DNA from: a phage
Direction: 5' to 3' (one strand)
Sequence record: PX092659.1
Length of the DNA stretch: 64,000 nt
Shown: positions 31,494-49,147 of the stretch, piece by piece
Layout of the letters: each line of letters begins with the position of its first letter
How positions within the stretch are numbered: position 1 is the stretch's first letter
The notes under the pieces: generated by a model
Databases searched by the model: none
What the model was told of the DNA's origin: nothing
The model's input: only the letters and a program-made list of their open reading frames with translations
Translations under genes and position numbers: made by a program

Positions 31494-31520
31494 ATTCGTA
31501 TTGAAAGTGAGGAGGGCTTT

Positions 31521-37164: not shown

Positions 37165-37198
37165 ATTTTATTAACTGTAACTAAAACAAAGGAAATAT

Positions 37199-38146: not shown

Positions 38147-38170
38147 TACCCGCATGTAACATCTGAAATA

Positions 38171-38205
38171 AGCCCTGCGTTTCCTGGAGAGCGCAGGGCT
38201 TTTCT
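38171..38205 (+). terminator. rho-independent terminator
   Basis: AGCCCTGCG ... CGCAGGGCT stem followed by TTTTCTG. Confidence 0.75.
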
Positions 38206-38221
38206 GTATTTAAGATAAAAG

Positions 38222-38256
38222 AAAAGCCCCTAAGTCTTTCGACTAGGGGCTTTATT
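38222..38256. terminator. bidirectional rho-independent terminator
   Basis: GCCCCTAAGTC tttc GACTAGGGGC with T-runs on both strands; ends the plus-strand SPFH unit and the minus-strand pair 38471-39901. Confidence 0.7.
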
Positions 38257-38470
38257 GTTTGGTTCTTTAGAACCATATACTCTTGTTACAGCAACCACCC
38301 ATACGGGAGGCCAATCTTGACTGAAAATCTACTCTAGGGGGCAGGATAAGAGTAGGCTTAAAGGCAAACGGATTGAACGCCGGTATTTGTGTAAACATTG
38401 CTGGAGAGCAACAACGTGCTACAGGCATTGGGCAGCACGAAATAGATTTTCTGCAACACATAATTTCTCC

Positions 38471-38887
38471 TTAGGAGTTATTACCACCATTTTGAGCTTT
38501 TGCAACTTGGCTTTGGCAGAAGCTATTAAACTTACCCATAAGTGATACAAGCTGTTTCCCATCCTCTGTCTTTGCGAAGTCTTCGAAAAGGGCTAGTACT
38601 GCCTGTCCTTCCGCAGAAACCTGCGGTTGTTGGGTTTGTTGCTGAACTTGCTGCTGAGGCACCTGTTGCTGCATTTGTTGAGGCATTTGCGACTGCCCGC
38701 TCATTTGCTGCATCATTTGCATAGGACTCACACTTCCAGGGTTTTGCTGGAGTTGTTGCTGCATCTGTTGCGCTTCTGCTAAACGCTGTTGCAATTGTTG
38801 TAAGTAGGGGTTATCCAGACCCGGAATGGGCTGCTGGGAGCCCATACTTTGATTAAGTCCGTTATTTACAAAACCATATTTACTCAT
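38471..38887 (-). CDS. hypothetical Gln-rich low-complexity protein
   Basis: 138 aa; about 35 percent Gln (QQLQQRLAEAQQMQQQLQQ...); part of the inverted two-gene module. Confidence 0.5.
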   Translation of the reverse strand: MSKYGFVNNGLNQSMGSQQPIPGLDNPYLQQLQQRLAEAQQMQQQLQQNPGSVSPMQMMQQMSGQSQMPQQMQQQVPQQQVQQQTQQPQVSAEGQAVLALFEDFAKTEDGKQLVSLMGKFNSFCQSQVAKAQNGGNNS

Positions 38888-38908
38888 AATGGGCTCCTCC
38901 CCTTAATA

Positions 38909-39901
38909 TTAAGCCGGCAGTTTAGCCTGCAGACCAGCCAGAGTCTGAGTGATAGCACCAAGACTTACAGCGATTTGATTAATTACCTGACCGTTAGCAC
39001 CGTTACCCGCAGCGATTGCTTCACGTAGGCGACATGCATCTAACTCATCCTGAATACGAGCAGTAGTTACACCAGCGATAGCAGTCTGAAGTTCACAGCA
39101 ACATTCAGCGATCTGACGTTCCAGAGAGTTCTGGTTAGCACACATCTGAGCCTGAACAGCGGCAAACTGGTTATTAGTTTGTAAAGTCTGCTGGAAAGCG
39201 ATCTGTGCAGAATCAAACTTATCTTGTGCACGAGCTATCTGATTAGCTGCGAAAGATTGATCAATCTGGCGAGAAAGATCGAACTGACCCTGAATAACGT
39301 TGCGAGTTTCCTGACAGATCTGATTAGACAGATTAGCACCTGTACCATAGATCGTAGTTAGTACAGACTGAGTATCACGGCTCTGGTTTTGGGATGTCTG
39401 GCTAAACCCATTGTTAACTGCGCTTAAAACAGCTCCAGTACCCTGGTTAGCTTCTGTACGAGTAGTGTTAATAGCTGCTAGAATACTAGCGGTATCTTGG
39501 TTCTGAAGTACTGCATCAACTGCGGTACCATCACCAACTACACCACGTCCACCGAATCCACCGAAACCACCGAATCCGCCTGTTAATAGAGCACCGATTA
39601 GGATAGCTCCGAATAGTCCCATACCTTCACCACCGAAAGCACCTGCGTTTGCTGGGTAACCACCCAGTAGGCCAGGGAAGCCACTAGTAAATACGTTTAC
39701 TGGTTCTTGCATTTTATGTTTTCCATATTTATGACAATGTTCATCGTCATCTTCTTCATCATCGTGTTCACGATGTTTTTCTTCGTAGGCTCTGACCTTC
39801 TCCCACTTTTTCTTATCTGATTCCTCGTGACGGTGCAGTTCTGCTGCAACGCTAGCGACGGTCTCAGGACTCTTAGCTACTTCTTCTGTCATTTTTGACA
39901 C
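38909..39901 (-). CDS. hypothetical membrane protein with glycine-zipper TM segment and Gln/Asn/Cys-rich C-terminal domain
   Basis: 330 aa; acidic/His-rich N-terminus, Gly-zipper TM (GLFGAILIGALLTGGFGGFGGFGG), Q/N/T-rich C-terminal half with Cys clusters (AECCCELQ); AGGAGGTG RBS. Confidence 0.55.
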   Translation of the reverse strand: MSKMTEEVAKSPETVASVAAELHRHEESDKKKWEKVRAYEEKHREHDDEEDDDEHCHKYGKHKMQEPVNVFTSGFPGLLGGYPANAGAFGGEGMGLFGAILIGALLTGGFGGFGGFGGRGVVGDGTAVDAVLQNQDTASILAAINTTRTEANQGTGAVLSAVNNGFSQTSQNQSRDTQSVLTTIYGTGANLSNQICQETRNVIQGQFDLSRQIDQSFAANQIARAQDKFDSAQIAFQQTLQTNNQFAAVQAQMCANQNSLERQIAECCCELQTAIAGVTTARIQDELDACRLREAIAAGNGANGQVINQIAVSLGAITQTLAGLQAKLPA

Positions 39902-39952
39902 CTCCTAGTATATAGAAAATGTGTGTCTCTTTGATCACTCATCCATAACATA

Positions 39953-39981
39953 TACTTTACACTACCCCAGCGAAAATGTCA
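39953..39981 (-). promoter_or_regulatory. second promoter class (minus): TTGACATTTTCGC-type
   Basis: Reverse complement reads TTGACA ttttcgctggggtagtg TAAAGT; shares the 13-nt TTGACATTTTCGC with 9576-9604. Confidence 0.55.
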
Positions 39982-40098
39982 AGGGGTCTTTAAAAATTGC
40001 CCCTGAATTTTTAGTGGGGTCACAAATTTTGGTCCTCACCATTTATCTGCTATCCTTAAGTGCCCTATGATTTTCCTCTAAAAAGTTAAAAAATTTGA

Positions 40099-40127
40099 TT
40101 GCTTGAATGCTAAATTCTCTGTATAAT
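40099..40127 (+). promoter_or_regulatory. sigma70-type early promoter: TTGCTT-N17-TATAAT
   Basis: Cassette match. Confidence 0.6.
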
Positions 40128-40157
40128 ATATCTATAAATTTGAAAGAGGAACCAAAT

Positions 40158-40676
40158 ATGAATGTTGATGAGCTAACACAGCACCTCTTATCTAGAGGAT
40201 TTGATACAGATAAATATCATTGCTGGTTAAGTCCGGAAGGATGGCTAACAGTCCCGTTGTATGACTTCTCTGGGATGTTGAGGGGCTATCAAACTTATAA
40301 TCCTTCTGCTCCAAAAGGTCATGGTAAGTGCCCCTTTGAAGCTAAATACTTTACTTATTCTACTACCCAGTGTGTATGGGGACTAGAAACTCTCAATGGA
40401 GATGAAAAAGTAGTATTGATTGCTGAATCTGTATTTAAGGCAGTTGCGTTACATAATGCTGGTTATCCAGCCCTAGCAATGTTGGGTTCTTCTCCAGGAA
40501 AAGCGTTATTAAAGCAACTGAAATTACTACCTTTTAAATTGGTAGCTGTCGGAGATAATGATCCTGCGGGTGAAAAATTTGCTAGAAAATTAAACGGCTT
40601 TGTTTCTCCCGTAGATGTGGATGAGATGTCTACCGAAAACTTGAAAAATTTTCTTGCTATGAAGCTAAATTTCTAA
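40158..40676 (+). CDS. small TOPRIM-domain-like protein
   Basis: ATG 40158 after GAAAGAGGAAC RBS (track ORF extends to 40107); TOPRIM-like Glu (LIAESVFK) and DxD (AVGDNDPAG). Confidence 0.45.
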   Translation: MNVDELTQHLLSRGFDTDKYHCWLSPEGWLTVPLYDFSGMLRGYQTYNPSAPKGHGKCPFEAKYFTYSTTQCVWGLETLNGDEKVVLIAESVFKAVALHNAGYPALAMLGSSPGKALLKQLKLLPFKLVAVGDNDPAGEKFARKLNGFVSPVDVDEMSTENLKNFLAMKLNF

Positions 40677-40682
40677 TATAAT
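40654..40682 (+). promoter_or_regulatory. sigma70-type early promoter: TTGCTA-N17-TATAAT (inside 3' end of previous ORF)
   Basis: Cassette match; would drive the tRNA-Ser/tRNA-Met pair. Confidence 0.55.
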
Positions 40683-40697
40683 ATATCTTATAAATTC

Positions 40698-40786
40698 GGA
40701 AGAATAGCATAACGGTATTGCAGCAGATTGCTAATCTGTCGGCTTGAAATATAGCCTTGTGGGTTCGATTCCCACTTCTTCCGCCA
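40698..40786 (+). tRNA. tRNA-Ser (anticodon GCT), class II
   Basis: Acceptor GGAAGAA/TTCTTCC, anticodon loop TTGCTAA, long variable arm, T-arm GTGGG-TTCGATT-CCCAC, G73-CCA. Confidence 0.75.
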
Positions 40787-40792
40787 AACATA

Positions 40793-40867
40793 GGGTCGGT
40801 AGCTTAAAGTTAAAGCGGTGGCCTCATAAGCTAACGAGTAGGAGTTAGATTCTCCTCCGACCCACCA
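40793..40867 (+). tRNA. tRNA with CAT anticodon (Met, fMet or Ile2 type)
   Basis: Perfect acceptor GGGTCGG/CCGACCC, D-stem GCTT/AAGC, anticodon loop CTCATAA, T-arm AGGAG-TTAGATT-CTCCT. Confidence 0.7.
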
Positions 40868-40881
40868 ATTAGGTACTGCGT

Positions 40882-41283
40882 ATGGAAAAGGTTGAATTTG
40901 AGTACTTTGGAGTTATTTTAATTGTACACTTAAATGGTACAATAGAAACTAAAGATAGAATAATAACACAACGAAATCAATATGGCGAGTATACTAGAAC
41001 TATAAAAGGAAAGGTACTGTCTCCACGTTGCAATGGTAAATCTGGGTATTTTCAGGTGAAGATTTGCAATAAGGGATTAGGTAAAAATGAGTATGTGCAC
41101 AGACTCGTATGGATGGCTTTCAACGGTGAAATACCGGAAGGCTATGAAATAGAGCACAAAGATGATGATAAGTCTAATAATGCTTTACCTAACCTAGAAT
41201 TATTCACAAGAAAGCAGAATATGGACAAAGTCTTAAATAAGATGACTAGAGATTCTCTAGGTCGTTTTGAAAAACTTAACTAG
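40882..41283 (+). CDS. HNH homing endonuclease (divergent copy) inside tRNA cluster
   Basis: 133 aa; HRLVWMAFNGEIPEGYEIEHKDDDKSNNALPNLELFTRKQN. Confidence 0.6.
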   Translation: MEKVEFEYFGVILIVHLNGTIETKDRIITQRNQYGEYTRTIKGKVLSPRCNGKSGYFQVKICNKGLGKNEYVHRLVWMAFNGEIPEGYEIEHKDDDKSNNALPNLELFTRKQNMDKVLNKMTRDSLGRFEKLN

Positions 41284-41291
41284 GAGACTAT

Positions 41292-41477
41292 ATGTCTAAG
41301 TTTCAAGAACTCAAGCAAGAGCTAGAAGAATGTGCCTGCCCTGAGTGTAGAGGAATTGGTGAAAGTTCTGATGCAGAAGCAGGAGATACTTTTTGCAATA
41401 TCTGGGTTTGCCCAACTTGCAATGGTACAGGTATTAATCCTAACTGCGGTATTTCCCTAGATATTGAGCGAGGATAA
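41292..41477 (+). CDS. hypothetical small Cys-rich protein (two CxxC pairs)
   Basis: 61 aa; CACPECRG ... CPTCNG. Confidence 0.45.
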   Translation: MSKFQELKQELEECACPECRGIGESSDAEAGDTFCNIWVCPTCNGTGINPNCGISLDIERG

Positions 41478-41578
41478 TACCTGTGAAACTAAAAGATTAT
41501 TATATTGGTTGGTTTGTGGGACTAGTAGTAGTATTTTCACTAGGCTATAATATGTATCAACTAATAAACTGATTACAT

Positions 41579-41655
41579 GGGGGTGTAATCGAATTGGCAT
41601 AGGTACTGGACTTAAAATTCAGGTTTTGTGGGTTCGAATCCCACCACCCCTACCA
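41579..41655 (+). tRNA. tRNA with TAA anticodon (Leu-type anticodon) but short variable arm
   Basis: Acceptor GGGGGTG/CACCCCT, anticodon stem CTGGA/TTCAG with loop CTTAAAA, 5-nt variable region, T-arm GTGGG-TTCGAAT-CCCAC, A73-CCA. Confidence 0.6.
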
Positions 41656-41830
41656 AATTAAGGAAATAAGATGTATAGACATCCACCTCCGCCAACACGT
41701 CGTTCCAGAGAAGTTATCCTCATGGAGTTGACTAAAAACTTCAAGGCAACTCTTGAAGATAGAGATTTAGGCACGGATGAAGACATTGATTTTATTTGTA
41801 GACTATTAAAGATGAAACTGGAGAAACAAC

Positions 41831-42037
41831 ATGGCTAATCCTGAAATTACCGCACAACGTTTCATGCTTAAAGGCATGATTGCTGAAGCAGGTATGACTC
41901 AAGAGGTTGCAGACTTTCATAAGCAATTTCTTGATATTATAACTCTAGCTAAAGAGACTGGAGAAAAAGAACACGGAGCAGCAATTATGGCTATATCTCT
42001 TATTAGTCTAGACTTGGCTGAAGAATCTGGAGTTTAG
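41831..42037 (+). CDS. hypothetical protein
   Basis: 68-aa track ORF; a 56-aa ORF at about 41671-41841 precedes it. Confidence 0.45.
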   Translation: MANPEITAQRFMLKGMIAEAGMTQEVADFHKQFLDIITLAKETGEKEHGAAIMAISLISLDLAEESGV

Positions 42038-42067
42038 CTCCTCCAAACAGAATTTTTAAAAATGTAC

Positions 42068-42097
42068 TTGCCTTTTGCTTTAAATTTCTGATATAAT
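42068..42097 (+). promoter_or_regulatory. sigma70-type promoter (TTGCCT-N18-TATAAT)
   Basis: Cassette-like with 18-nt spacer. Confidence 0.45.
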
Positions 42098-42127
42098 AGT
42101 TATATAAATTGATGAAGGAGTTAACGA

Positions 42128-42403
42128 ATGCAAAATCGTGTTATAGCAGCTGGTATTGAAAGTGCAATCTGTAAATCCTGGGAAGGCTGGGAAGGTGAGA
42201 TTGAATGGCTTTATTTCTATGATGTAGAACTTCTGCCGGAAGTTAAAGCTAAATGTGTTGAAGCTGGCATGGCTCCAGATGCAAAAGCTGATATTGATAT
42301 TTCAATGTCTGAACTTAAAGGTCGTGTAATTACTGTTAGTGATGAGGGCGAAGAAGTCTTCGAACTTCCATTCTCCTTAATTGTCACTCCTAAGTTCGAC
42401 TAA
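42128..42403 (+). CDS. hypothetical protein
   Basis: 91-aa track ORF after GAAGGAG RBS. Confidence 0.5.
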   Translation: MQNRVIAAGIESAICKSWEGWEGEIEWLYFYDVELLPEVKAKCVEAGMAPDAKADIDISMSELKGRVITVSDEGEEVFELPFSLIVTPKFD

Positions 42404-42439
42404 CTAATACAGCACTGAGCAAGTTCTTTAAAATTTGAC

Positions 42440-42468
42440 TTGCTCAGTGCTATAAAACTTGATATAAT
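42440..42468 (+). promoter_or_regulatory. sigma70-type early promoter: TTGCTC-N17-TATAAT
   Basis: Cassette match; drives the RNA-only unit 42496-42938. Confidence 0.55.
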
Positions 42469-42495
42469 AGTTATCTAATTTGGAAAGTTCTTTTT

Positions 42496-42589
42496 AAGGT
42501 AGTTCCTACTTTAGTAGAGTAAATTTTTGGCAGATGGCCCCACCATTTTACCGATAACTCCTAGTCAGTGCGGCAACACTGGCTACCTT
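42496..42589 (+). ncRNA. candidate tRNA-sized structured RNA (non-canonical, no consensus T-loop)
   Basis: Terminal 7-bp helix AAGGTAG/CTACCTT encloses three hairpins (CTAC-ttta-GTAG; ATGG-cccca-CCAT; CAGTG-cggcaa-CACTG); lies between promoter and tRNA-Tyr. Confidence 0.3.
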
Positions 42590-42600
42590 AAAGAGAATTT

Positions 42601-42687
42601 GGGCGTTTATTCCGTAAGTGGTAGCGGAGGGGATTGTAAATCCCTGGTCATTGCGACTCGAGTGGTTCGACTCCATTAACGCCCACC
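42601..42687 (+). tRNA. tRNA-Tyr (anticodon GTA), class II
   Basis: Acceptor GGGCGTT/AACGCCC, anticodon loop TTGTAAA, long variable arm, A73-CCA. Confidence 0.75.
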
Positions 42688-42695
42688 AAATTTAA

Positions 42696-42772
42696 GTCCT
42701 GTTAGACAAACGGGTAAAGTCACTACCCTTTCAAGGTAGGATTTGCGGGTTCGATCCCCGCACAGGACGCCA
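42696..42772 (+). tRNA. tRNA-Glu (anticodon TTC)
   Basis: Acceptor GTCCTGT/ACAGGAC, anticodon stem CTACC/GGTAG with loop CTTTCAA, T-arm GCGGG-TTCGATC-CCCGC. Confidence 0.8.
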
Positions 42773-42780
42773 ATTTCTGC

Positions 42781-42857
42781 ATTCCTAGAGTGTTACTGGA
42801 CAGCATGTCGGTCTCCAAAACCGTACGGTCTAGGTTCGAGTCCTAGTAGGTTTGCCA
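42781..42857 (+). tRNA. tRNA-Trp (anticodon CCA), two U-U mismatches in acceptor stem
   Basis: Anticodon loop CTCCAAA on stem CGGT/ACCG; T-arm CTAGG-TTCGAGT-CCTAG; acceptor ATTCCTA/TAGGTTT pairs at 5 of 7 positions. Confidence 0.55.
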
Positions 42858-42863
42858 AAATTT

Positions 42864-42938
42864 GCACCTTTAGCTGAGATGGATTAGCGCTTGCCTGAAG
42901 AGCTTGAGAGGTTCGTTCGATACGAACAGGGTGCACCA
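42864..42938 (+). tRNA. tRNA-Phe (anticodon GAA)
   Basis: Acceptor GCACCTT/AGGGTGC, D-stem GCTG/TAGC, anticodon loop CTGAAGA, T-arm GTTCG-TTCGATA-CGAAC. Confidence 0.65.
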
Positions 42939-42955
42939 AATTGAAGGAGCTGCTG

Positions 42956-43228
42956 ATGCATCCTGAAAACTTCTTTATTTACTGCGCGGATAAGTCGCTG
43001 AAACGTAGAATTAACAAAGTCTATCATTATCGTGCTAGTCAACAGCCTTATGTATATGCTTTTGACGGTGATCACATTCCACTAGAACAATTATCTTGTG
43101 ATTACATGATATTGAAGAACTTTGACGAGACGAAGATCTCAAGCGTTCATAATCGACAGAATCCCTTAACGTGGAAATATAAGAAGAAAAAGAAAGGCAT
43201 CAAATTCTTAAAAAATGTAGTTGCTTAG
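42956..43228 (+). CDS. hypothetical protein
   Basis: ATG 42956 after GAAGGAG (track ORF starts at TTG 42941). Confidence 0.45.
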   Translation: MHPENFFIYCADKSLKRRINKVYHYRASQQPYVYAFDGDHIPLEQLSCDYMILKNFDETKISSVHNRQNPLTWKYKKKKKGIKFLKNVVA

Positions 43229-43249
43229 TTTCTAAAAGTTCTGTATAAT
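43221..43249 (+). promoter_or_regulatory. sigma70-type early promoter: TTGCTT-N17-TATAAT (within 3' end of previous ORF)
   Basis: Cassette match. Confidence 0.55.
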
Positions 43250-43297
43250 AATTACATAAATTGAACTGGAGAAGCAACATGACAGAACAAGATAAAC

Positions 43298-43373
43298 CGA
43301 CCGTTGGCTGAATGGCTTAGGCGAAGGATTGCAAATCCTTTTTATGTGAGTTCAAATCTCATGCGGTCGTCCA
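43298..43373 (+). tRNA. tRNA-Cys (anticodon GCA)
   Basis: Acceptor CGACCGT/GCGGTCG, anticodon stem AAGGA/TCCTT with loop TTGCAAA, T-arm GTGAG-TTCAAAT-CTCAT. Confidence 0.7.
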
Positions 43374-43380
43374 AATTTTA

Positions 43381-43463
43381 GGGTCGTTAGCCAAGCGGTT
43401 TGGCGGCGGATTGTTAATCCGTGTCGAAAGACAACGTAGGTTCGAATCCTACACGGCCCGCCA
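43381..43463 (+). tRNA. class II-shaped tRNA with GTT (Asn-type) anticodon and G73
   Basis: Acceptor GGGTCGT/ACGGCCC, D-stem GCCA/TGGC, anticodon stem GCGGA/TCCGT with loop TTGTTAA, 13-nt variable arm with GTC/GAC stem, T-arm GTAGG-TTCGAAT-CCTAC. Confidence 0.55.
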
Positions 43464-43565
43464 AATTCTGTGTAGAGTTAAGTAAACCGGTAGCCAACCA
43501 GCTATCATTGCTGACATCGAATTCAGCCACAGATACCATTTTCATTAATAACTGAGGAAACAAGC

Positions 43566-43751
43566 ATGTCCAAGAATGTAATTGCGCAGCTAGAAGTTCA
43601 TCGTGATAGCACTATTAACAATATTGAAGTTGAAAAGAAATACATCGAAGAACTTAAACACGATATACTAGTAAGTCTCAATCGTCTTAATGTACGAAAA
43701 GAGTTTCTTAAAGAACTTAATGCAGCTATTGAAAAACTCAAAGCTGAGTAA
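43566..43751 (+). CDS. hypothetical protein
   Basis: 61-aa track ORF after GAGGAAACAAGC RBS. Confidence 0.45.
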   Translation: MSKNVIAQLEVHRDSTINNIEVEKKYIEELKHDILVSLNRLNVRKEFLKELNAAIEKLKAE

Positions 43752-43760
43752 ATGAATTAT

Positions 43761-43837
43761 GCGACCGGGGCTGGCTTGGTAATGGTACTCCCCTGTCACG
43801 GGAGAGAATGTGGGTTCGAATCCCATCGGTCGCGCCA
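43761..43837 (+). tRNA. tRNA-Asp (anticodon GTC)
   Basis: Acceptor GCGACCG/CGGTCGC, anticodon stem CTCCC/GGGAG with loop CTGTCAC, T-arm TGGG-TTCGAAT-CCCA. Confidence 0.8.
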
Positions 43838-44013
43838 AATAAGGTAGGTTAGCTATGGAATGTAGGGAGTTTACTCCAGAAGAGATAGAGCAGATAAAAG
43901 AATCTGCTATGAAAAATGCTAGAATATCTCTGTCACTGGAAGGTATCATTATTAGTGATGTAAACTTTGAAAAAATCAAAGCCATAGCTGATGAACTGGA
44001 AAAGTAATTTAAT

Positions 44014-44089
44014 ACATCCATAGCTCAATGGTTAGAGCTACCGCCTCTTAAGCGGAGGGTTCTAGGTTCAAGTCCTAGTGGGTGTACCA
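44014..44089 (+). tRNA. tRNA-Lys (anticodon CTT)
   Basis: Acceptor ACATCCA/TGGGTGT, D-arm GCTCAATGGTTAGAGC, anticodon loop CTCTTAA, T-arm CTAGG-TTCAAGT-CCTAG. Confidence 0.65.
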
Positions 44090-44114
44090 AATTAATTTAG
44101 TATGAGAATATACT

Positions 44115-44462
44115 ATGCGTAATGCTAAAGAAGAGCTGTTACTCGCCTTAAAAAATACCAATTCTAAAGTTAAGTGTATTAAAATAGAATTTGGGTATTA
44201 TGGGGACAAAAAAGTCTGGGTATTACCTTTAGGTTATACAGAAGAAGACATTGAGGGGTTTCTTAATAACCTAGACTTTGAATATGATTCTGGATACGGT
44301 GGACAATTACTTTATGGTAATGTATGGTTTGCCGATGGAACTTGGCTAGAACGTGGGGAATATGATGGTGCTGAGTGGTGGGAATACAAGGCTACACCAG
44401 CAATCCCAGAGGAATGCCGAACAATTAATGGTGAAGTAGATAATACTTTACGGTTAAACTAA
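44115..44462 (+). CDS. hypothetical protein
   Basis: 115-aa track ORF. Confidence 0.5.
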   Translation: MRNAKEELLLALKNTNSKVKCIKIEFGYYGDKKVWVLPLGYTEEDIEGFLNNLDFEYDSGYGGQLLYGNVWFADGTWLERGEYDGAEWWEYKATPAIPEECRTINGEVDNTLRLN

Positions 44463-44855
44463 TAAAATTTCAGTGCAGAACACGGAGCTAGCAATTCGGA
44501 AGTGCTGACTCATGATAAGCTGCCTATGTACTTGCAAAGCGGTCGTGTCCAAGACTCGGACTCTTGCACTGAAAACAATCAAACATTCTAGCGTGGTTGA
44601 TGGGGAAACCAGCTTGGCTAGGGCAGAAGCTCGTTCGATTCGAGTGAAAGAATGGTTCTCGTAAGTCCGCACAAGTGATAGCAGGTTCGAGTCCTGTCTA
44701 GAATGATACTATAAAGTTTACTTATTGAGTAGGTTCCGATAGATCGGCGGGTCTATTCTGGCAGTTAAGAGAGGTCTCGCAAACTTCTTTGTCAGCCGTG
44801 GGGTTGGTAGCCTCCAGGTGGCCTACACAATAAGTAAATTTATTAAAAATTCATT

Positions 44856-44884
44856 TGCTATTTCGCTTAATTCTCGGTATAATA
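44856..44884 (+). promoter_or_regulatory. sigma70-type early promoter: TTGCTA-N17-TATAAT
   Basis: Cassette match (coordinates here may be off by 1 nt). Confidence 0.55.
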
Positions 44885-44915
44885 TATCTTATAAAGTGTT
44901 GAGAAGGAAAGCAAA

Positions 44916-45113
44916 ATGAAAAAAGTTTTACTGCTGTCTGTATTCCTACTTACTGGTTGTTTTAAACTTGACTCAACCATTAATAAAGAGTATGAATTTG
45001 CTAAAAATTTCTGTGGCGGAGAGAGTAATATAAAGAATTTCTACATATATAGTACAATTCCTAGTACCGTTTATTGTGTAGACGGACGAATTATTAATAT
45101 TCCTCCACAATAA
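44916..45113 (+). CDS. small lipoprotein (signal peptide with lipobox LLTGC)
   Basis: 65 aa; MKKVLLLSVFLLTGC then mature Cys; AAGGAAAGC RBS. Confidence 0.55.
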   Translation: MKKVLLLSVFLLTGCFKLDSTINKEYEFAKNFCGGESNIKNFYIYSTIPSTVYCVDGRIINIPPQ

Positions 45114-45122
45114 AAGAATTAA

Positions 45123-45198
45123 CAGTGCGTAGCGCAGTTGGTAGCGTGGGAGCCTTGGATGCTTCGGGTCGCAGGTTCGAGTCCTGCCGCACTGACCA
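45123..45198 (+). tRNA. tRNA-Pro (anticodon TGG)
   Basis: Acceptor CAGTGCG/CGCACTG, D-arm GCGCAGTTGGTAGCGT, anticodon stem GGAGC/GCTTC with loop CTTGGAT, T-arm GCAGG-TTCGAGT-CCTGC. Confidence 0.75.
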
Positions 45199-45204
45199 AA
45201 CAAT

Positions 45205-45282
45205 TGCGGGTTAGATCTCTGGTAGAGATCGCTAGTCTCATAAGCTAGAAAGAGGTAGGTTCGATTCCTGCACCCGCTTCCA
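45205..45282 (+). tRNA. tRNA with CAT anticodon (Met/Ile2 type), 1-72 mismatch
   Basis: Anticodon stem CTAGT/GCTAG with loop CTCATAA; T-arm GTAGG-TTCGATT-CCTGC; acceptor TGCGGGT/ACCCGCT has a U-U at position 1-72. Confidence 0.6.
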
Positions 45283-45471
45283 TTTTAATAGAGGGTTTCG
45301 AAATGAAAGTATTTCGATTAGTAGTAAGTGACAAACGTTTAGGTAAGAATACCTCAAAATCCTTACTTGCTCATTATGGAAAAGATGAGAAAGAAGTAAT
45401 GGCGGAGTTTGGGATTAATCACCCTTACTTGAAAGTTCACTCTATTAAAGAAGTATATAATGGTTACTAAT

Positions 45472-45550
45472 AGATCGCTAGCTCAATAGGTTTAGTAGCA
45501 TCCGACTTTTAATCGGAAGGTTCTGGGTTCGAGTCCCAGGCGATCTACCA
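45472..45550 (+). tRNA. tRNA-Lys (anticodon TTT)
   Basis: Perfect acceptor AGATCGC/GCGATCT, anticodon stem TCCGA/TCGGA with loop CTTTTAA, T-arm CTGGG-TTCGAGT-CCCAG. Confidence 0.8.
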
Positions 45551-45568
45551 ATTTCAAGAAAAACGCAG

Positions 45569-45597
45569 TTGCTTAATGCGTAATTTCTTGTTACAAT
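45569..45597 (+). promoter_or_regulatory. sigma70-type early promoter: TTGCTT-N17-TACAAT
   Basis: Cassette variant; followed by about 235 nt of ORF-free leader before tRNA-Ala. Confidence 0.55.
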
Positions 45598-45835
45598 ATT
45601 TATATAAATTGATGAGGAGAAATCCTCGTCATAGTTCACTAAGGTATTAGCTCGACCTAGGACTGGCTGCCAAAAAGCACGATCCCTACGATTCGGGAGA
45701 AGTTCTAGATTAGTCCACTAGATTCAGCGGCAACTGAATAGTGTATCGGGTTTGCGAGATGACGCGGTTCCTTCCGCTCGAAGCGAAGGTGCTGTAGTTA
45801 CGCCGAGCTAATAGCCTTAGTAAACTAAAGAATTT

Positions 45836-45910
45836 GGGCGAATAGTGTCAGCGGGAGCACACCAGACTTGCAATCTGGTAGGGAGGGTTCGAGTCCCTCT
45901 TTGTCCACCA
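45836..45910 (+). tRNA. tRNA-Ala (anticodon TGC)
   Basis: Acceptor GGGCGAA/TTTGTCC with G3-U70 wobble (Ala identity pair), anticodon stem CCAGA/TCTGG with loop CTTGCAA, T-arm GAGGG-TTCGAGT-CCCTC. Confidence 0.8.
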
Positions 45911-45915
45911 AATAC

Positions 45916-45992
45916 GCGTGATTGATGGAATTGGCATACATACCGTCCTTAGAAGTCGGGTTTTGAGGGTTCGAATCCCTTGTCACGCACCA
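45916..45992 (+). tRNA. tRNA with TAG anticodon (Leu-type anticodon) but short variable arm
   Basis: Acceptor GCGTGAT/GTCACGC, anticodon loop CTTAGAA on stem CCGTC/GTCGG (one mismatch), 5-nt variable region, T-arm GAGGG-TTCGAAT-CCCTT, A73. Confidence 0.55.
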
Positions 45993-46104
45993 AATTTGAT
46001 GGTCAGAGTAAATTAAACCTACTATCTCGGTTGAGCTGTTTTAATGGGTTCGAATCCCAGCGAGGCGTAACTGCCTGGCGTGATAGAGGCATCATCTTAT
46101 TACT

Positions 46105-46195
46105 GGAAGAGCAAATCGAATTGGCGACGAAAACCGCTTGGAAAGTGGCTGACTGGTAAAACGGCTTGAGAGTTCAAATCTCTCCTCTTCCGCCA
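46105..46195 (+). tRNA. tRNA-Ser (anticodon GGA), class II
   Basis: Acceptor GGAAGAG/CTCTTCC, anticodon loop TTGGAAA on 4-bp stem, long variable arm, T-arm GAGAG-TTCAAAT-CTCTC, G73-CCA. Confidence 0.6.
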
Positions 46196-46214
46196 AACAC
46201 TTGAGGTAATAATA

Positions 46215-46562
46215 ATGTTAGCAAAAGATAAAGCTCTAGAGTTTTTAGCATCTTTAGATGAAGATAAGATTATAGATGCTGCTGAAAAAGCTGGAATGCC
46301 CGATTTAACATATCTGGAACGTGCTATTATTGCTCGTGATAAACTACAGAAAGAGTTTGCTATTGCCCAGGAGGAGTTTTATACTCGCTATAACGCTCTT
46401 ACTAAGCAAATTGAAAATGAGTGTTCCCATACTTGGGGAGTAACAGAAAACCTAGGTAATGATCACGATGGCTGGTCTAAAGTAAAAATTACCTACTATC
46501 ATCGTAGGACTTGTAAAATTTGTGGAAAAGTAGAAGATTTCACTAGTACGAGTGACTATTAG
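46215..46562 (+). CDS. hypothetical protein
   Basis: 115-aa track ORF after GAGGTAATAATA RBS. Confidence 0.5.
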   Translation: MLAKDKALEFLASLDEDKIIDAAEKAGMPDLTYLERAIIARDKLQKEFAIAQEEFYTRYNALTKQIENECSHTWGVTENLGNDHDGWSKVKITYYHRRTCKICGKVEDFTSTSDY

Positions 46563-46575
46563 TATAATAAATACT

Positions 46576-46665
46576 AGAAGATAGGACGTAGTGGTACGTA
46601 ACTGGTCTTGAAAACCAGCCCGCTGTAGCGATACGGTGATGGTTCGACTCCATTATCTTCTGCCA
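46576..46665 (+). tRNA. tRNA-Ser (anticodon TGA), class II
   Basis: Acceptor AGAAGAT/ATCTTCT, anticodon stem CTGGT/ACCAG with loop CTTGAAA, long variable arm, T-arm GATGG-TTCGACT-CCATT, G73-CCA. Confidence 0.75.
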
Positions 46666-47228
46666 ATTAACTATAAGGAAGTCTTATGAGCAAAACAGTT
46701 ACTGTAACAATGAAGGACGGTAAAAAATTTAAAGCATGTCTTCATGAAACAGATAAGGGGTGGATGGCTTATTTGCCACACCTAGATTCCACCGGGTACG
46801 GAATGACCCAACGTGAAGCTATTGTTGATGCTTTAAATGAGGCTTCTGCTGGTTTATAAAAAATTCTTGAAGTATGCCGGAATCGGTAGACGGGGCTGCC
46901 TAAAAGGTTTATAGGGAACATCCACTCCCTGCAACATACCTCATAAAGCGGCTGAGATAAATGGTCTATCTCGTGAAGGTTCAAGTCCTTCTGCTTCTTG
47001 ATACATCTATGGCTCAAAGTGTAACGGTGCTATTTGATGCTCTTGGTAAGACTTCCCCGACATGCGTTCGGGAGTAAGCTGCTAAGACTAGAGTAGAAGA
47101 GTTTCTGAGAGCCGCCACAATTGAAAATTCGTACTCGTCTTGAGCTGCGTGCAATAGGAGATAACTTGATTAGTATTCTAGAACATGCTAATTGAGGATG
47201 GTTTCGCTAACCCTGCGAGTTTTCAATT

Positions 47229-47305
47229 GTGGCTATATCATAATTGGTTAATGATCCTGATTGTGAATCAGGCCTATGTGGATTCGAATTCCACTAGCCA
47301 CCCCA
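47229..47305 (+). tRNA. tRNA-His (anticodon GTG)
   Basis: Acceptor GTGGCTA/TAGCCAC, C73, anticodon stem CCTGA/TCAGG with loop TTGTGAA, T-arm GTGGA-TTCGAAT-TCCAC. Confidence 0.8.
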
Positions 47306-47330
47306 AATTAACTTAAATAGGAAATAAAAT

Positions 47331-47528
47331 ATGGCTGATTTCTGCAAACAATGCTCCATTGATATGTGGGGCAGAGATACTGGTGATCTTTCTGGTTTGA
47401 TTACAGAAGCTGAGGTCAAAGAAGGTTATGGTGCAGTTGTGATTTGCGAAGGATGCGGAGTTATTCGAGTAGATCATGAAGGCAAACGTTTAAAAGAACC
47501 GGAAAACTTAGGAGAAACAAATGAGTAA
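47331..47528 (+). CDS. hypothetical small Cys-containing protein
   Basis: 65-aa track ORF; CKQC ... CEGCG. Confidence 0.45.
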   Translation: MADFCKQCSIDMWGRDTGDLSGLITEAEVKEGYGAVVICEGCGVIRVDHEGKRLKEPENLGETNE

Positions 47529-47757
47529 TGCTTTAATTAGTGAAATTATGTTAACACGTCTTGCAGAACTGCAAACTCTTCGAGATGAATCTCAGAATAA
47601 CTTAGCCTATCATAAACAGATGGTAGATACTCTTACTACTCGTATTGAAACTTACGAGCGTGATATTGCAGCATTACAGGCTCTTTTCTCAGTATCAGCA
47701 CCAGATACTTTAGAGCAGCCTGTTGTATCTCAGCCAGTAGAAACAGCATCTAGTTAA
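47521..47757 (+). CDS. hypothetical protein
   Basis: 78-aa track ORF, start overlaps upstream stop. Confidence 0.45.
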   Translation: MSNALISEIMLTRLAELQTLRDESQNNLAYHKQMVDTLTTRIETYERDIAALQALFSVSAPDTLEQPVVSQPVETASS

Positions 47758-47766
47758 TAGCATTTT

Positions 47767-47842
47767 TGGAGTGTAGATCAATTGGCAGATCGTCGGCCTC
47801 TGACTCCGAAGGTTCCTGGTTCGATCCCAGGCACTCCAGCCA
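47767..47842 (+). tRNA. tRNA-Gln (anticodon CTG)
   Basis: Acceptor TGGAGTG/CACTCCA, D-stem GATC/GATC, anticodon loop CTCTGAC, T-arm CCTGG-TTCGATC-CCAGG. Confidence 0.75.
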
Positions 47843-47848
47843 AATAAT

Positions 47849-47924
47849 TGGAGAGTAGTGTAACGGTTAGCACAACGGCCTTTGACTCCGTTAATGGTAG
47901 GTTCGATTCCTCCTTCTCCAGCCA
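47849..47924 (+). tRNA. tRNA-Gln (anticodon TTG)
   Basis: Acceptor TGGAGAG/TTCTCCA, anticodon loop CTTTGAC; near-duplicate of the adjacent Gln(CTG) gene. Confidence 0.7.
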
Positions 47925-47932
47925 AGTAATAA

Positions 47933-48008
47933 GCGGTTAAGCACACGGGTTGTGTCGCAGGCCTTCCAAGCCTCGCTGAGTAGGGTTCGATTCCCTCTAG
48001 CCGCTCCA
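47933..48008 (+). tRNA. tRNA-Gly (anticodon TCC)
   Basis: Acceptor GCGGTTA/TAGCCGC, anticodon stem AGGC/GCCT with loop CTTCCAA, T-arm AGGG-TTCGATT-CCCT. Confidence 0.65.
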
Positions 48009-48024
48009 ACTTTAAGGAAACGTT

Positions 48025-48276
48025 ATGCACGTTTTTGAGTTTCGTAATAAAAGTACCGATAAACGAGTTATTGTTATTGGAGAAACATACCGAGCATACG
48101 AACAAACTGACGGCTCTGTCATCCTGAATGATGAGAAAGGAGGTTTTAGCTTTTATCCAGAAGAACCTTATGAAGAGTTTCGAAAACAATTTAACCTAGA
48201 CTGGAGAAAGCATTTAAACACTGTTGCTTCATCTGTAGTATTGCCAACTACCAGTACTGTACTATCTAATGGCTGA
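48025..48276 (+). CDS. hypothetical protein
   Basis: 83-aa track ORF; a 52-aa ORF follows at about 48271-48432. Confidence 0.45.
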   Translation: MHVFEFRNKSTDKRVIVIGETYRAYEQTDGSVILNDEKGGFSFYPEEPYEEFRKQFNLDWRKHLNTVASSVVLPTTSTVLSNG

Positions 48277-48443
48277 TAACCTAAAAGTCAAGATCGACAA
48301 ACAAAAGAAACGTGTAGAAGTAGAGATTGGTGAAGAACGTGTAGCCTTCACCTTTGAATTCCTACAACAAATGGCAATGGTAGTTATGACTGATAAGTCT
48401 CCTGTTATTGAAAAAGAAATCCCGTTGAAATAACGGGATCATC

Positions 48444-48518
48444 GCTCCTAAAGCATTGCTGGCGATGCAGTTGCCTTGTAAGCATCTGAACCGGGTTCGA
48501 TTCCTGGTGGGAGCACCA
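48444..48518 (+). tRNA. tRNA-Thr (anticodon TGT)
   Basis: Acceptor GCTCCTA/TGGGAGC, D-arm GCATTGCTGGCGATGC, anticodon loop CTTGTAA, T-arm CCGGG-TTCGATT-CCTGG. Confidence 0.75.
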
Positions 48519-48533
48519 AATTTAAAAATTCAT

Positions 48534-48562
48534 TTGCTTTCTCTCTTATTTATTGTTATAAT
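48534..48562 (+). promoter_or_regulatory. sigma70-type early promoter: TTGCTT-N17-TATAAT
   Basis: Cassette match. Confidence 0.6.
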
Positions 48563-48592
48563 ATTTATATAAATTAATGAGAGGGAAACCAA

Positions 48593-48883
48593 ATGAAACG
48601 TTATCTTTCTGTTGTGTTCCAAACTGGTGGTCAACGCTATACCTATGAATTTCCTAGCTCTTGGAAGATCAAAGAAGGTGATCAAGTAGTAGTGTTAACA
48701 CCGCGAGATGGATATAAAGTAGTAACGGTTAAACAAGTATTCCCAAAAGATCATGAACCAGCTAAAGGCATTCGCTATAAGATGATTCATGGTGTGGTTC
48801 GTCAAGTACCACGAACTGAGGTAGAAGTAGATAAGACTGGAGAAGCTAAATTCCGTTATACTTCTTACCTAGATAGTGTGTGA
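48593..48883 (+). CDS. hypothetical protein
   Basis: 96-aa track ORF after GAGAGGGAAACC RBS. Confidence 0.5.
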   Translation: MKRYLSVVFQTGGQRYTYEFPSSWKIKEGDQVVVLTPRDGYKVVTVKQVFPKDHEPAKGIRYKMIHGVVRQVPRTEVEVDKTGEAKFRYTSYLDSV

Positions 48884-48898
48884 TGTAAATATTTTAAT

Positions 48899-48975
48899 GC
48901 TTCGGTAGCTTAGCGATCTAAAGCACTCGGCTGATAACCGAGAGATCGGGGGTTTAAATCCCTCCCGGAGTACCA
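48899..48975 (+). tRNA. tRNA-Ile (anticodon GAT)
   Basis: Acceptor GCTTCGG/CCGGAGT, D-stem GCTT/AAGC, perfect anticodon stem CTCGG/CCGAG with loop CTGATAA, T-arm GGGGG-TTTAAAT-CCCTC. Confidence 0.75.
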
Positions 48976-49071
48976 AATTTAGGAATTAAGACTATGCGTC
49001 CAGGAAAGTTTAAAAAAGCTAGTTGGTCTAAAGAGTATAAAGAATACTTACTTAGTCTAATAAAACATAAT

Positions 49072-49147
49072 AGTTAGTTGGCAGAGTGGTTATGCACCTC
49101 CTTCATACGGAGCGACTACAGTGGTTCAAATCCACTACTAACTACCA
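49072..49147 (+). tRNA. tRNA with CAT anticodon (Met/fMet/Ile2 type)
   Basis: Perfect acceptor AGTTAGT/ACTAACT, anticodon stem CTCC/GGAG with loop TTCATAC, T-arm AGTGG-TTCAAAT-CCACT. Confidence 0.7.

What the first reader, a model, noticed from the sequence alone, without database searches (positions are those of the whole stretch)
44916..45113. Small lipoprotein gene inside the tRNA cluster
A 65-aa ORF with a classic lipobox (LLTGC) and its own promoter/RBS; small phage lipoproteins frequently mediate superinfection exclusion by blocking the receptor.
Basis: partly seen in the sequence, partly recalled or inferred. Interest (0 to 1): 0.35.

Follow-up and report, generated by a model that had tools for sequence, protein, structure and literature searches.

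The report
Orphan small phage lipoprotein, mislabelled spanin
This is a real, conserved gene for a tiny membrane-anchored protein that some T5-like phages carry as an optional extra among their tRNA genes; databases call it a lysis "spanin", which is almost certainly wrong, and its true job, probably protecting the infected cell's envelope, has not been tested.

Summary
ORF 44916-45113 (+) encodes a 65-aa prolipoprotein (MKKVLLLSVFLLTG|C) between tRNA-Lys and tRNA-Pro of a T5-like phage. It is under strong purifying selection (dN/dS 0.05-0.10).

The promoter is not private. It is the T5 promoter P13a equivalent, which also drives tRNA-Pro and tRNA-fMet. It persists in relatives that have a different ORF (T5.066) or none in this slot.

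The gene is optional: 83 of about 516 T5-like records carry it. It belongs to an uncharacterised family (PHROG 6073, 38 clusters) found in T5-like and Seunavirus phages and on phage-sized metagenomic contigs. It always sits among small accessory genes and has no conserved neighbour.

The mature 51 residues model confidently (pLDDT 89) as one helix plus three strands with two invariant cysteines. No PDB fold match was found.

The database label "Rz-like spanin" fails. The window has the canonical T5 spanin pair, holin and endolysin elsewhere, and SpaninDB assigns other genes in three carriers.

It is not Llp/Cor either. There is no homology, it is not next to the receptor-binding gene, a carrier keeps its own llp, and presence does not track receptor-binding protein type.

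Best guess (about 0.4): an early-expressed, stand-alone periplasmic exclusion or protection factor. Function is untested.

The parts
44855..44883 (+). Sigma-70-type early promoter (TTGCTA, 17 nt, TATAAT). It is the equivalent of T5 promoter P13a, whose 75-nt annotated region maps to 44836-44910.
   Evidence: 10 of 12 match; 88% identity to the annotated T5 P13a; conserved in HdH2, AKFV33 and T5, whatever follows it.
44904..44908 (+). Shine-Dalgarno AAGGA, 7 nt upstream of the ATG. The same RBS and ATG are used by the alternative T5.066-type cassette.
   Evidence: sequence; AKFV33 shares GAGAAGGAAAGCAAAATG and then diverges.
44916..45113 (+). Complete coding sequence of the 65-aa prolipoprotein, including the stop codon.
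   Evidence: dN/dS 0.05-0.10; PHROG 6073 at E=1.2e-28.
44916..44957 (+). Signal peptide, residues 1-14 (MKKVLLLSVFLLTG). The predicted signal peptidase II cleavage is before Cys15. The lipobox L-T-G-C is encoded at 44949-44960.
   Evidence: PROSITE-type rule; lipobox-type motif in 31 of 35 family representatives.
44958..45110 (+). Mature 51-aa lipoprotein. It starts with the lipidated Cys15 and has Phe at +2, which predicts outer-membrane sorting. A short tether is followed by a helix (mature residues 4-19) and three beta-strands. The invariant Cys33 (45012-45014) and Cys54 (45075-45077) are inferred to form a disulfide.
   Evidence: AF2 model pLDDT 89.1, pTM 0.69 and the full-length model; C33 and C54 invariant in 35 of 35; the +2 rule is established knowledge of Lol sorting.
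45123..45282 (+). tRNA-Pro(tgg) 45123-45198 and tRNA-Met(cat) 45205-45282, inferred to be co-transcribed with the ORF. The stop codon is 9 nt from tRNA-Pro with no terminator-like site between, so RNase P cleavage would define the 3' end of the mRNA (inferred).
   Evidence: (no terminator-like site); the T5 annotation has the same order, P13a, ORF, tRNA-Pro, tRNA-fMet.

Best explanation
The ORF is a genuine single-gene accessory cassette of a T5-like phage.

Expression (inferred). It is transcribed early from the P13a-type promoter, as the leader cistron of a unit that continues into tRNA-Pro and tRNA-fMet. The product is exported and then lipidated and cleaved at Cys15 by the Lgt/LspA/Lnt pathway. 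Phe at +2 predicts delivery to the inner leaflet of the outer membrane.

Structure (modelled). The 51-residue mature part is a compact domain of one helix and three strands, facing the periplasm on a roughly 10-residue tether. The invariant Cys33 and Cys54 probably form a DsbA-made disulfide.

Proposed function (inferred, not shown). It acts alone by binding a periplasm-exposed partner, to protect the infected cell's envelope. That means superinfection exclusion or "lytic conversion" in the broad sense. Relatives are anchored variously to the outer membrane, to the inner membrane (Asp +2), or by a plain hydrophobic anchor. The partner is therefore more likely something reachable from either membrane, such as an incoming phage's genome-delivery apparatus or a trans-envelope or periplasmic host factor. 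It is less likely to be the periplasmic face of the phage's own receptor.

It is not the phage's spanin and not its Llp.
For: Real gene:
- dN/dS is 0.05-0.10.
- The family has 38 clusters at 50% identity, with conserved motifs ([FY]xWAxxFCGG and CxDGRxxDIP) and two invariant Cys.

Lipoprotein: PROSITE-type rule met; lipobox-type motif in 31 of 35 representatives.

Folded periplasmic domain: pLDDT 89, pTM 0.69.

Early transcription unit: the P13a equivalent sits upstream and there is no terminator-like site.

Optional cassette:
- It is present in 83 of about 516 T5-like records.
- The same slot holds the 2-TM protein T5.066 in 113 records or nothing, as in HdH2.
- Both cassettes encode envelope proteins and share the same RBS and ATG.

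Stand-alone module: across 7 independent contexts the only shared gene is the family member itself. Neighbours are small accessory genes, some with Lar, RNase T, Phd/Fic, ProQ or NAD-salvage domains.

Phage restriction: members sit on contigs of 88-154 kb, and none was found in 185,579 species-representative bacterial genomes with the pattern used.

Not a spanin:
- The window has the canonical i-spanin (53799-54242) and o-spanin (54173-54526), plus holin and endolysin.
- SpaninDB places the spanins of Spc35, FFH1 and PVP-SE1 at other coordinates (compared).

Not the cognate Llp.
Against: No experiment or homology links the family to any function.

No fold match was found in the PDB, and BFVD returned only family members. 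The exclusion role therefore rests on analogy: small, early, optional envelope proteins of phages.

Strong purifying selection without obvious diversification is not what is usually expected of a protein in an arms race with other phages.

The family appears restricted to virulent phages, whereas classical exclusion genes are commonest in prophages.

All T5-like orthologues seen have Phe or Tyr at +2. For this clade an outer-membrane target, including a non-cognate receptor, is therefore not excluded.

The genome-contig scan used one peptide pattern and would miss distant members.
Confidence: 0.4

Rival explanations
1. An Llp/Cor-type receptor blocker. The outer-membrane lipoprotein would bind the periplasmic face of an outer-membrane transporter and inactivate it. 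Because the phage's own receptor already has a cognate Llp, the target would be a non-cognate receptor, excluding heterologous phages or colicins.
For: The window protein and all T5-like orthologues seen have Phe or Tyr at +2, which predicts outer-membrane sorting. It is small, probably disulfide-bonded and expressed early, like Llp.
Against: - No similarity to Llp beyond the signal peptide, and the window protein's Cor hit covers residues 1-20 only.
- The Llp chains 8a60_B and 7qjf_A are in the PDB but are not among the listed fold matches.
- The gene is not adjacent to the receptor-binding protein gene.
- Presence does not track pb5 type: 7 of 30 FhuA-type records carry it, against 83 of 516 overall.
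- 11 of 31 family lipoproteins have Asp at +2 and 4 of 35 lack a lipobox.
Confidence: 0.15
2. A modulator of host envelope physiology or a counter-defence factor. The periplasmic domain would inhibit or sequester a host periplasmic or membrane protein, such as a protease, a cell-wall enzyme, an envelope-stress sensor or a membrane-anchored abortive-infection component, to keep the infected cell productive.
For: The gene always lies among early accessory or host-takeover genes: Lar, RNase T, Phd/Fic, ProQ and NAD-salvage neighbours in other phages. Strong purifying selection fits a conserved host target. Variable anchoring fits a soluble periplasmic or trans-envelope target. The family appears restricted to virulent phages.
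Against: There is no homology to any known inhibitor family: Pfam, NCBIfam and PADLOC give no significant family hit. There is no fold match. The gene is dispensable in about 84% of T5-like records.
Confidence: 0.2
3. A lysis-timing or lysis-protection factor. It would act as a periplasmic partner of the T4-T-like holin's periplasmic domain (an antiholin, like T4 RI), or as an inhibitor of endolysin or of lysis from without.
For: The window's holin is 218 aa. Its T4-T-like topology is my recollection, not tested here. The PHROG category for the family is 'lysis'.
Against: The gene lies about 9-11 kb from the lysis genes and is not linked to them in any context. No similarity to RI, RIII or Spackle was detected in the fold or sequence searches. 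The PHROG category simply follows the unsupported spanin label.
Confidence: 0.08
4. The database label is right: it is an Rz1-like o-spanin, the outer-membrane half of the complex that disrupts the outer membrane at lysis.
For: PHROG 6073 is described as 'Rz-like spanin', and many RefSeq and GenBank records carry that name. It is a small lipoprotein with periplasmic cysteines.
Against: - There is no i-spanin partner nearby. The flanks are tRNAs and stable RNAs, and no neighbour is conserved in 7 contexts.
- The window already has the canonical overlapped T5 spanin pair, with the same 70-nt overlap that SpaninDB lists for Spc35 and FFH1.
- SpaninDB's o-spanins in Spc35 (22433-22787), FFH1 (22884-23238) and PVP-SE1 (60594-60885) are other genes. 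The homologues lie at 31494-31688, 31954-32148 and 130942-131154.
- The gene is absent from about 84% of T5-like phages.
- Asp at +2 or no lipobox occurs in 15 of 35 relatives.
- The mature part has only 3 Pro in 51 residues and a compact fold.
Confidence: 0.03

Closest known systems
T5 Llp (lytic conversion lipoprotein, T5.158; PDB 8a60_B, 7qjf_A) and Cor of phi80/N15/T1-like phages
   Same: It is a small phage prolipoprotein with a type II signal, predicted to sort to the outer membrane. The mature domain has cysteines and it is encoded in the early region of a T5-like phage. Plausibly it serves the same broad purpose, changing the envelope of the infected cell.
   Different: There is no sequence similarity beyond the signal peptide, and Llp chains are absent from the listed fold matches. 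The gene lies in the tRNA cluster rather than beside the receptor-binding protein gene. It coexists with a cognate llp in carrier SP15. Its presence does not track receptor-binding protein type. Many relatives appear to be inner-membrane anchored.
Rz1-type o-spanins (lambda Rz1; T5-family o-spanin, PHROG 812)
   Same: It has an N-terminal lipobox, small size, periplasmic cysteines, and the database label 'Rz-like spanin'.
   Different: It has no i-spanin partner. It is not a SpaninDB spanin in Spc35, FFH1 or PVP-SE1. The true pair lies at 53799-54526 in this window. The gene is optional, has few prolines and models as a compact fold.
Membrane-tethered extracytoplasmic exclusion proteins that act after adsorption: Ltp of Streptococcus phage TP-J34 (a lipoprotein said to block the tape-measure-mediated injection step), and T4 Spackle and Imm. 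These are cited from my own knowledge, not from a tool.
   Same: This is an analogy of logic only. Each is a small stand-alone protein displayed in the extracytoplasmic space on a short tether or as a periplasmic protein, acting by binding part of an incoming phage's delivery apparatus. That would tolerate the variable anchoring seen in this family.
   Different: No sequence or fold relationship was detected in any search. The function of the present family is untested.
T5.066 (52-aa, two-transmembrane-segment protein of T5)
   Same: It occupies exactly the same slot: after promoter P13a, with the same RBS and ATG, immediately upstream of tRNA-Pro. It is also a small envelope protein of unknown function.
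   Different: The sequence is unrelated. It is an integral membrane protein rather than a lipoprotein.

Membership tests
Bacterial-type lipoprotein (signal peptidase II substrate) | N-terminal signal with a positive n-region, an uncharged h-region, and a lipobox [LVI][ASTVI][GAS]C with the Cys at positions 15-35 (PROSITE PS51257-type rule). | tested here: met
   MKKVLLLSVFLLTG|C passes the rule. A lipobox-type motif is present in 31 of 35 family representatives. Pfam LPAM_1 is only sub-threshold, E=2.2.
Bacterial-type lipoprotein (signal peptidase II substrate) | Actual lipidation and globomycin-sensitive cleavage. | not testable with these tools
   Needs palmitate labelling, globomycin treatment or a C15A mutant. 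LipoP and SignalP are not available here.
Two-component spanin, o-spanin (Rz1-like) | The gene is embedded in, overlaps or adjoins an i-spanin gene (N-terminal TMD plus a periplasmic coiled coil). | tested here: not met
   The flanks are tRNA-Lys, T5.067, the stable RNAs and tRNA-Pro. PVP-SE1 gp212 shows no hydrophobic transmembrane stretch on inspection of its sequence. No neighbour is conserved in 7 contexts.
Two-component spanin, o-spanin (Rz1-like) | It is the phage's curated or only spanin. | tested here: not met
   The window has the i-spanin at 53799-54242 (PHROG 739, E=9e-37) and the o-spanin at 54173-54526 (PHROG 812, E=4e-30). SpaninDB coordinates for Spc35, FFH1 and PVP-SE1 are other genes (one search compared).
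Two-component spanin, o-spanin (Rz1-like) | Obligatory outer-membrane sorting across the family. | tested here: not met
   The window protein has Phe at +2, which is compatible. But 11 of 31 family lipoproteins have Asp at +2 and 4 of 35 lack a lipobox.
Two-component spanin, o-spanin (Rz1-like) | Conserved in all members of the phage group, since spanins are needed for lysis. | tested here: not met
   The gene is present in 83 of about 516 T5-like records. HdH2 has a clean deletion and KKP_3831 has a frameshifted copy.
Llp / Cor receptor-blocking lipoproteins | Sequence homology of the mature domain. | tested here: not met
   hhalign against Llp aligns residues 1-17 only. The PHROG 1119 (Cor) hit for the window protein covers residues 1-20 at E=0.087.
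Llp / Cor receptor-blocking lipoproteins | Fold similarity to solved Llp structures (8a60_B, 7qjf_A). | tested here: not met
   Llp chains are in the PDB sequence copy. Neither is among the 50 listed Foldseek matches, and no match has E<=0.001, for models with pLDDT 80 and 89. Only the top 50 were visible.
Llp / Cor receptor-blocking lipoproteins | Encoded next to the receptor-binding protein gene and co-varying with it. | tested here: not met
   llp lies beside oad/pb5 in T5 and SP15. This gene lies in the tRNA cluster. It occurs with FhuA-type pb5 (7 of 30 records), a slur09-type pb5, and in SPC35, which is cited as BtuB-binding (PMC12980165).
Llp / Cor receptor-blocking lipoproteins | Inactivates an outer-membrane receptor when expressed. 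| not testable with these tools
   Needs adsorption, plating-efficiency and colicin assays.
PHROG 6073 (uncharacterised small phage lipoprotein family) | Significant full-length match to the family profile. | tested here: met
   E=1.2e-28 over residues 1-63. All 35 representatives match this PHROG. There is no significant Pfam or NCBIfam family.

The most novel reading that the evidence does not exclude
PHROG 6073 would be a new family of stand-alone, membrane-tethered periplasmic mini-domains (about 50 residues, one helix, three strands, one disulfide). Unrelated large virulent phages (T5-like siphophages, Seunavirus and other roughly 90-150 kb phages) would use it for superinfection exclusion or envelope protection. 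The mechanism would differ from Llp/Cor: the target is reachable from either membrane, for example an incoming phage's genome-delivery apparatus or a trans-envelope host machine. It would be traded as a promoter-proximal cassette in front of tRNA genes.
Probability: 0.3. Interest if true: 0.55.

Novelty: new variant of a known kind. Interest (0 to 1): 0.3.

Why it matters
Practical value. The label 'Rz-like spanin' is spreading through RefSeq and Pharokka-type annotations of T5-like and Seunavirus phages, many of them candidates for therapy or biocontrol. This analysis shows the label is unfounded. These phages have their real spanins elsewhere.

Biological value. If the protein is an exclusion or protection factor, it would affect how phages in cocktails interfere with each other. 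It would also add a new, very small fold to the short list of envelope-level exclusion proteins.

The slot itself is a neat example of how accessory genes ride on tRNA transcription units. One promoter and RBS is followed by a lipoprotein, a 2-TM protein or nothing, and then by tRNA-Pro.

Tried and rejected
- Pfam, NCBIfam and PADLOC scans gave only sub-threshold, mostly signal-peptide-type hits.
- A PDB sequence-profile search gave nothing meaningful.
- Foldseek against the PDB, with the full-length and mature-only models, gave no match at E<=0.001. The best were generic alpha/beta fragments, such as the FtsH periplasmic domain at TM 0.43.
- Foldseek against BFVD returned essentially only the protein itself and family members.
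- Profile comparison with Llp aligned the signal peptide only.
- A search for a conserved partner gene across 7 contexts found none.
- The scan of 185,579 bacterial and archaeal species genomes found no relatives, with a single-pattern caveat.
- The IMG/VR scan returned only isolates already known. The alignment of distant members was too diverse for that tool.
- Linkage of the cassette to a particular tRNA-Pro allele was rejected: alleles assort independently.
- Association with FhuA-type pb5 was rejected.
- Literature searches found no study of this protein.
- A 'leader peptide or regulatory uORF for the tRNA operon' was rejected, because homologues are conserved as proteins in contexts with no tRNA genes nearby.

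Full report
**What the window is**

The 2-kb region around the finding matches 525 phage records, almost all T5-like (Demerecviridae, Tequintavirus and Epseptimavirus), at 90-99% identity. The window runs in reverse orientation relative to the T5 reference. It carries 24 tRNA genes at 37090-49147.

**Observation**

The ORF at 44916-45113 (+) is exactly as described. It starts with ATG and encodes 65 aa: MKKVLLLSVFLLTGCFKLDSTINKEYEFAKNFCGGESNIKNFYIYSTIPSTVYCVDGRIINIPPQ. It lies between tRNA-Lys(ctt) 44014-44089 and tRNA-Pro(tgg) 45123-45198.

The N-terminus satisfies the PROSITE-type lipoprotein rule. Only three ORFs in the window do so: this one, the o-spanin, and one antisense ORF. Shuffled sequence gives 1.4 +/- 1.1 such ORFs, so the lipobox alone could be chance.

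Evolution settles that it is real:
- Against the NBSal005 and Ace orthologues, dN/dS is 0.048 and 0.098.
- An exhaustive profile search of 1.84 billion representatives finds 38 clusters of 61-90-residue proteins.
- These share [FY]xWAxxFCGG and CxDGRxxDIP motifs and two invariant cysteines, C33 and C54 in window numbering.
- 31 of 35 representatives have a lipobox-type motif.

**Promoter and transcription unit**

A TTGCTA-17-TATAAT promoter lies at 44855-44883. An AAGGA RBS lies 7 nt before the ATG. The promoter is not private to the ORF:
- The 75-nt region annotated in T5 as promoter P13a maps to 44836-44910 at 88% identity.
- The T5 stable RNAs RNA2 and RNAIV map just upstream, at 44584-44706 and 44729-44829, each at 97% identity.
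- In T5 the order is P13a, T5.066, tRNA-Pro, tRNA-fMet.

A three-way alignment shows how the slot varies. The promoter and sequence through TATAAAGTG are conserved in all three phages. After that:
- the window has the lipoprotein ORF;
- AKFV33, like T5, has an unrelated 52-aa ORF with two transmembrane segments, starting at the same RBS and ATG;
- HdH2 has a clean deletion of about 200 bp, running straight into tRNA-Pro.

No terminator-like site occurs in 44000-45600, and the stop codon is 9 nt from tRNA-Pro. I infer that the ORF is the leader cistron of an early mRNA-tRNA transcript whose 3' end would be set by tRNA processing.

**Distribution**

tblastn finds the protein in 83 phage records, whereas 516 records match the surrounding 1.2 kb. 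T5.066-type ORFs are found in 113 records. The gene is therefore optional.

It occupies the same slot in Tequintavirus and Epseptimavirus (EH3, Ace). In KKP_3831 it is frameshifted.

Homologues at 42-46% identity occur in Seunavirus myophages such as PVP-SE1 (gp211) and SSE121, and in Cronobacter phages. Other members sit on contigs of 88-154 kb, or on short metagenomic contigs, and one is from Erwinia phage KEY.

In six further contexts the gene sits in arrays of small genes of unknown function. Some neighbours have Lar, RNase T, Phd/Fic, ProQ or NAD-salvage domains. All-against-all BLAST finds no shared neighbour. One phage has two tandem paralogues.

No relative was found in 185,579 species-representative bacterial and archaeal genomes with the pattern used.

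**Structure**

AlphaFold2 with the family alignment gives pLDDT 80 for the precursor. For the mature 51 residues it gives pLDDT 89.1 and pTM 0.69. The model has a roughly 3-residue N-terminal tail, a helix at residues 4-19, and strands at 25-29, 37-40 and 45-47. A disulfide between the two invariant cysteines is inferred, since I could not inspect coordinates.

Foldseek against the PDB gives no match at E<=0.001 for either model. BFVD returns essentially only the protein itself (FFH1 'Lipoprotein') and a GAP31 homologue. A PDB sequence-profile search is empty of meaning.

**Is it a spanin?**

The protein matches PHROG 6073, which is described as 'Rz-like spanin', at E=1.2e-28. Many RefSeq records carry that name. 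The label fails every test I could apply:
- *The window has a complete T5-type lysis set.* This is the i-spanin at 53799-54242 (PHROG 739), the overlapping o-spanin at 54173-54526 (PHROG 812, lipobox ITGC), the holin at 56047-56703 and the endolysin at 56700-57113.
- *The curated SpaninDB assigns other genes.* Kongari et al. 2018 (PMC6139136) lists, for carriers of this lipoprotein, Spc35 at 22717-23161/22433-22787, FFH1 at 23168-23618/22884-23238 and PVP-SE1 at 60881-61283/60594-60885. The homologues lie at 31494-31688, 31954-32148 and 130942-131154.
- *There is no i-spanin partner in any context*.
- *The gene is missing from most T5-like phages*.
- *Anchoring varies.* 11 of 31 family lipoproteins have Asp at +2, the Lol-avoidance signal of enterobacteria, and four members have plain hydrophobic anchors.
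- *The mature part does not look like Rz1.* It has 3 prolines in 51 residues and models as a compact domain.

**Is it Llp/Cor-like?**

- T5 Llp shares only the signal peptide with this family.
- The window protein's PHROG Cor hit covers residues 1-20.
- Llp structures 8a60_B and 7qjf_A are in the PDB but are not among the listed fold matches.
- llp sits beside the receptor-binding gene in T5 and in SP15.
- SP15, the closest carrier (97.8% in this region), has a pb5 94.7% identical to T5's, plus its own llp.
- Of 30 records with T5/FhuA-type pb5, 7 carry the lipoprotein. The overall rate is 83 of 516.
- Carriers also include slur09, whose pb5 is 64% identical, and SPC35, which the literature lists among BtuB-binding phages (PMC12980165).

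The protein is therefore not the cognate receptor blocker and does not travel with the receptor-binding module.

**Most likely mechanism**

*Shown by sequence and comparison:*
- it is a real, constrained, optional, stand-alone gene;
- it has a lipoprotein signal;
- it has a compact periplasm-facing domain with two invariant cysteines;
- it lies in an early-region transcription unit;
- it is swapped with another small envelope protein at the same slot.

*Inferred:*
- Lgt/LspA/Lnt processing;
- outer-membrane sorting from Phe at +2;
- the disulfide;
- early co-transcription with the tRNAs.

*Proposed, at about 0.4.* It is an envelope-level protection or exclusion factor that acts by binding a periplasm-exposed partner. 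Family members are tethered to either membrane. So I favour a target reachable from both, such as the delivery apparatus of an incoming phage or a trans-envelope or periplasmic host factor. I favour this over the periplasmic face of an outer-membrane receptor, which I put at about 0.15. That reading is not excluded for the T5-like clade, where +2 is always Phe or Tyr.

*Other readings:*
- a host-physiology or counter-defence modulator, about 0.2;
- a lysis-timing factor, about 0.08;
- a spanin, about 0.03.

Purifying selection and restriction to virulent phages fit a conserved host target at least as well as they fit an arms race. This is why my confidence is modest.

**Novelty and score**

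The sequence is already in GenBank many times, 100% identical in FFH1, Spc35, slur09 and others. It is annotated as hypothetical protein, lipoprotein or 'Rz-like spanin'. No paper in the searched library addresses it.

It belongs to the known kind 'small phage envelope lipoprotein', but it is a member of neither characterised family and has no fold match. I therefore rate it a new variant of a known kind.

Interest is modest, at 0.3. The main immediate value is correcting a mis-annotation that is spreading. The upside is a new exclusion or protection family that could be tested with simple plasmid-expression assays.

Noticed in passing
window 44584-44706 and 44729-44829: These are equivalents of the T5 stable RNAs 'RNA2' (tRNA-like) and 'RNAIV', both annotated in T5 as of unknown function. 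They are 97% identical to T5 and nearly invariant in HdH2 and AKFV33. Neither ARAGORN nor Rfam detects them.
   Followed up: partly
window 45123-45198 (tRNA-Pro tgg): The tRNA-Pro gene is strikingly polymorphic among T5-like phages. At least 4 allele types, only about 63-84% identical, assort independently of the ORF cassette. The window's allele is 94-98% identical to tRNA-Pro of rV5-, phi92- and Seunavirus-type myophages (H142-H150).
   Followed up: partly
window 44901-44918, compared with L005 and L006: Two unrelated ORFs, the lipoprotein and the 52-aa 2-TM protein T5.066, use the identical RBS and ATG (GAGAAGGAAAGCAAAATG) after promoter P13a. This suggests cassette exchange by recombination at these short conserved flanks. 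T5.066-type ORFs occur in 113 records.
   Followed up: partly
window 53799-54526 and 56047-57113: This is the canonical T5-type lysis set. It comprises the i-spanin (53799-54242), the overlapping o-spanin (54173-54526, 70-nt overlap, lipobox ITGC), the holin (56047-56703) and the endolysin (56700-57113). About 1.5 kb of other genes separate the spanins from holin and endolysin.
   Followed up: yes
L013 901-1096 (Salmonella phage KKP_3831): The orthologue is split into two tblastn pieces, and the annotated CDS stops after 105 nt. This is a probable frameshifted pseudogene, consistent with the gene being dispensable.
   Followed up: no
L008 4799-4990 and 5001-5207: Two tandem paralogues of the family lie in one metagenomic phage contig. 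One has Val and the other Asp at +2 after the lipid cysteine.
   Followed up: no
window 46868-46999: There is a sub-threshold Rfam tRNA match (25.2 bits against a 29-bit gathering score) spread over 132 nt. It could be an interrupted or degenerate tRNA, or another tRNA-like stable RNA. ARAGORN does not call it.
   Followed up: no
window 53302-53799 and 61878-62414: Two ORFs (165 and 178 aa) look like HNH or AP2-type homing endonucleases by eye. One sits immediately upstream of the i-spanin. They were not scanned against any library.
   Followed up: no
L003 2630-3004 (PVP-SE1 gp212) and 3225-3872 (gp210): In Seunavirus the homologue is flanked by a Cys-rich 124-aa protein, with a 4-nt overlap, and by a 215-aa protein with 2 transmembrane segments and a C-terminal coiled-coil-like tail. 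Both are of unknown function (PHROGs 13057 and 12750) and neither is conserved next to other family members.
   Followed up: partly
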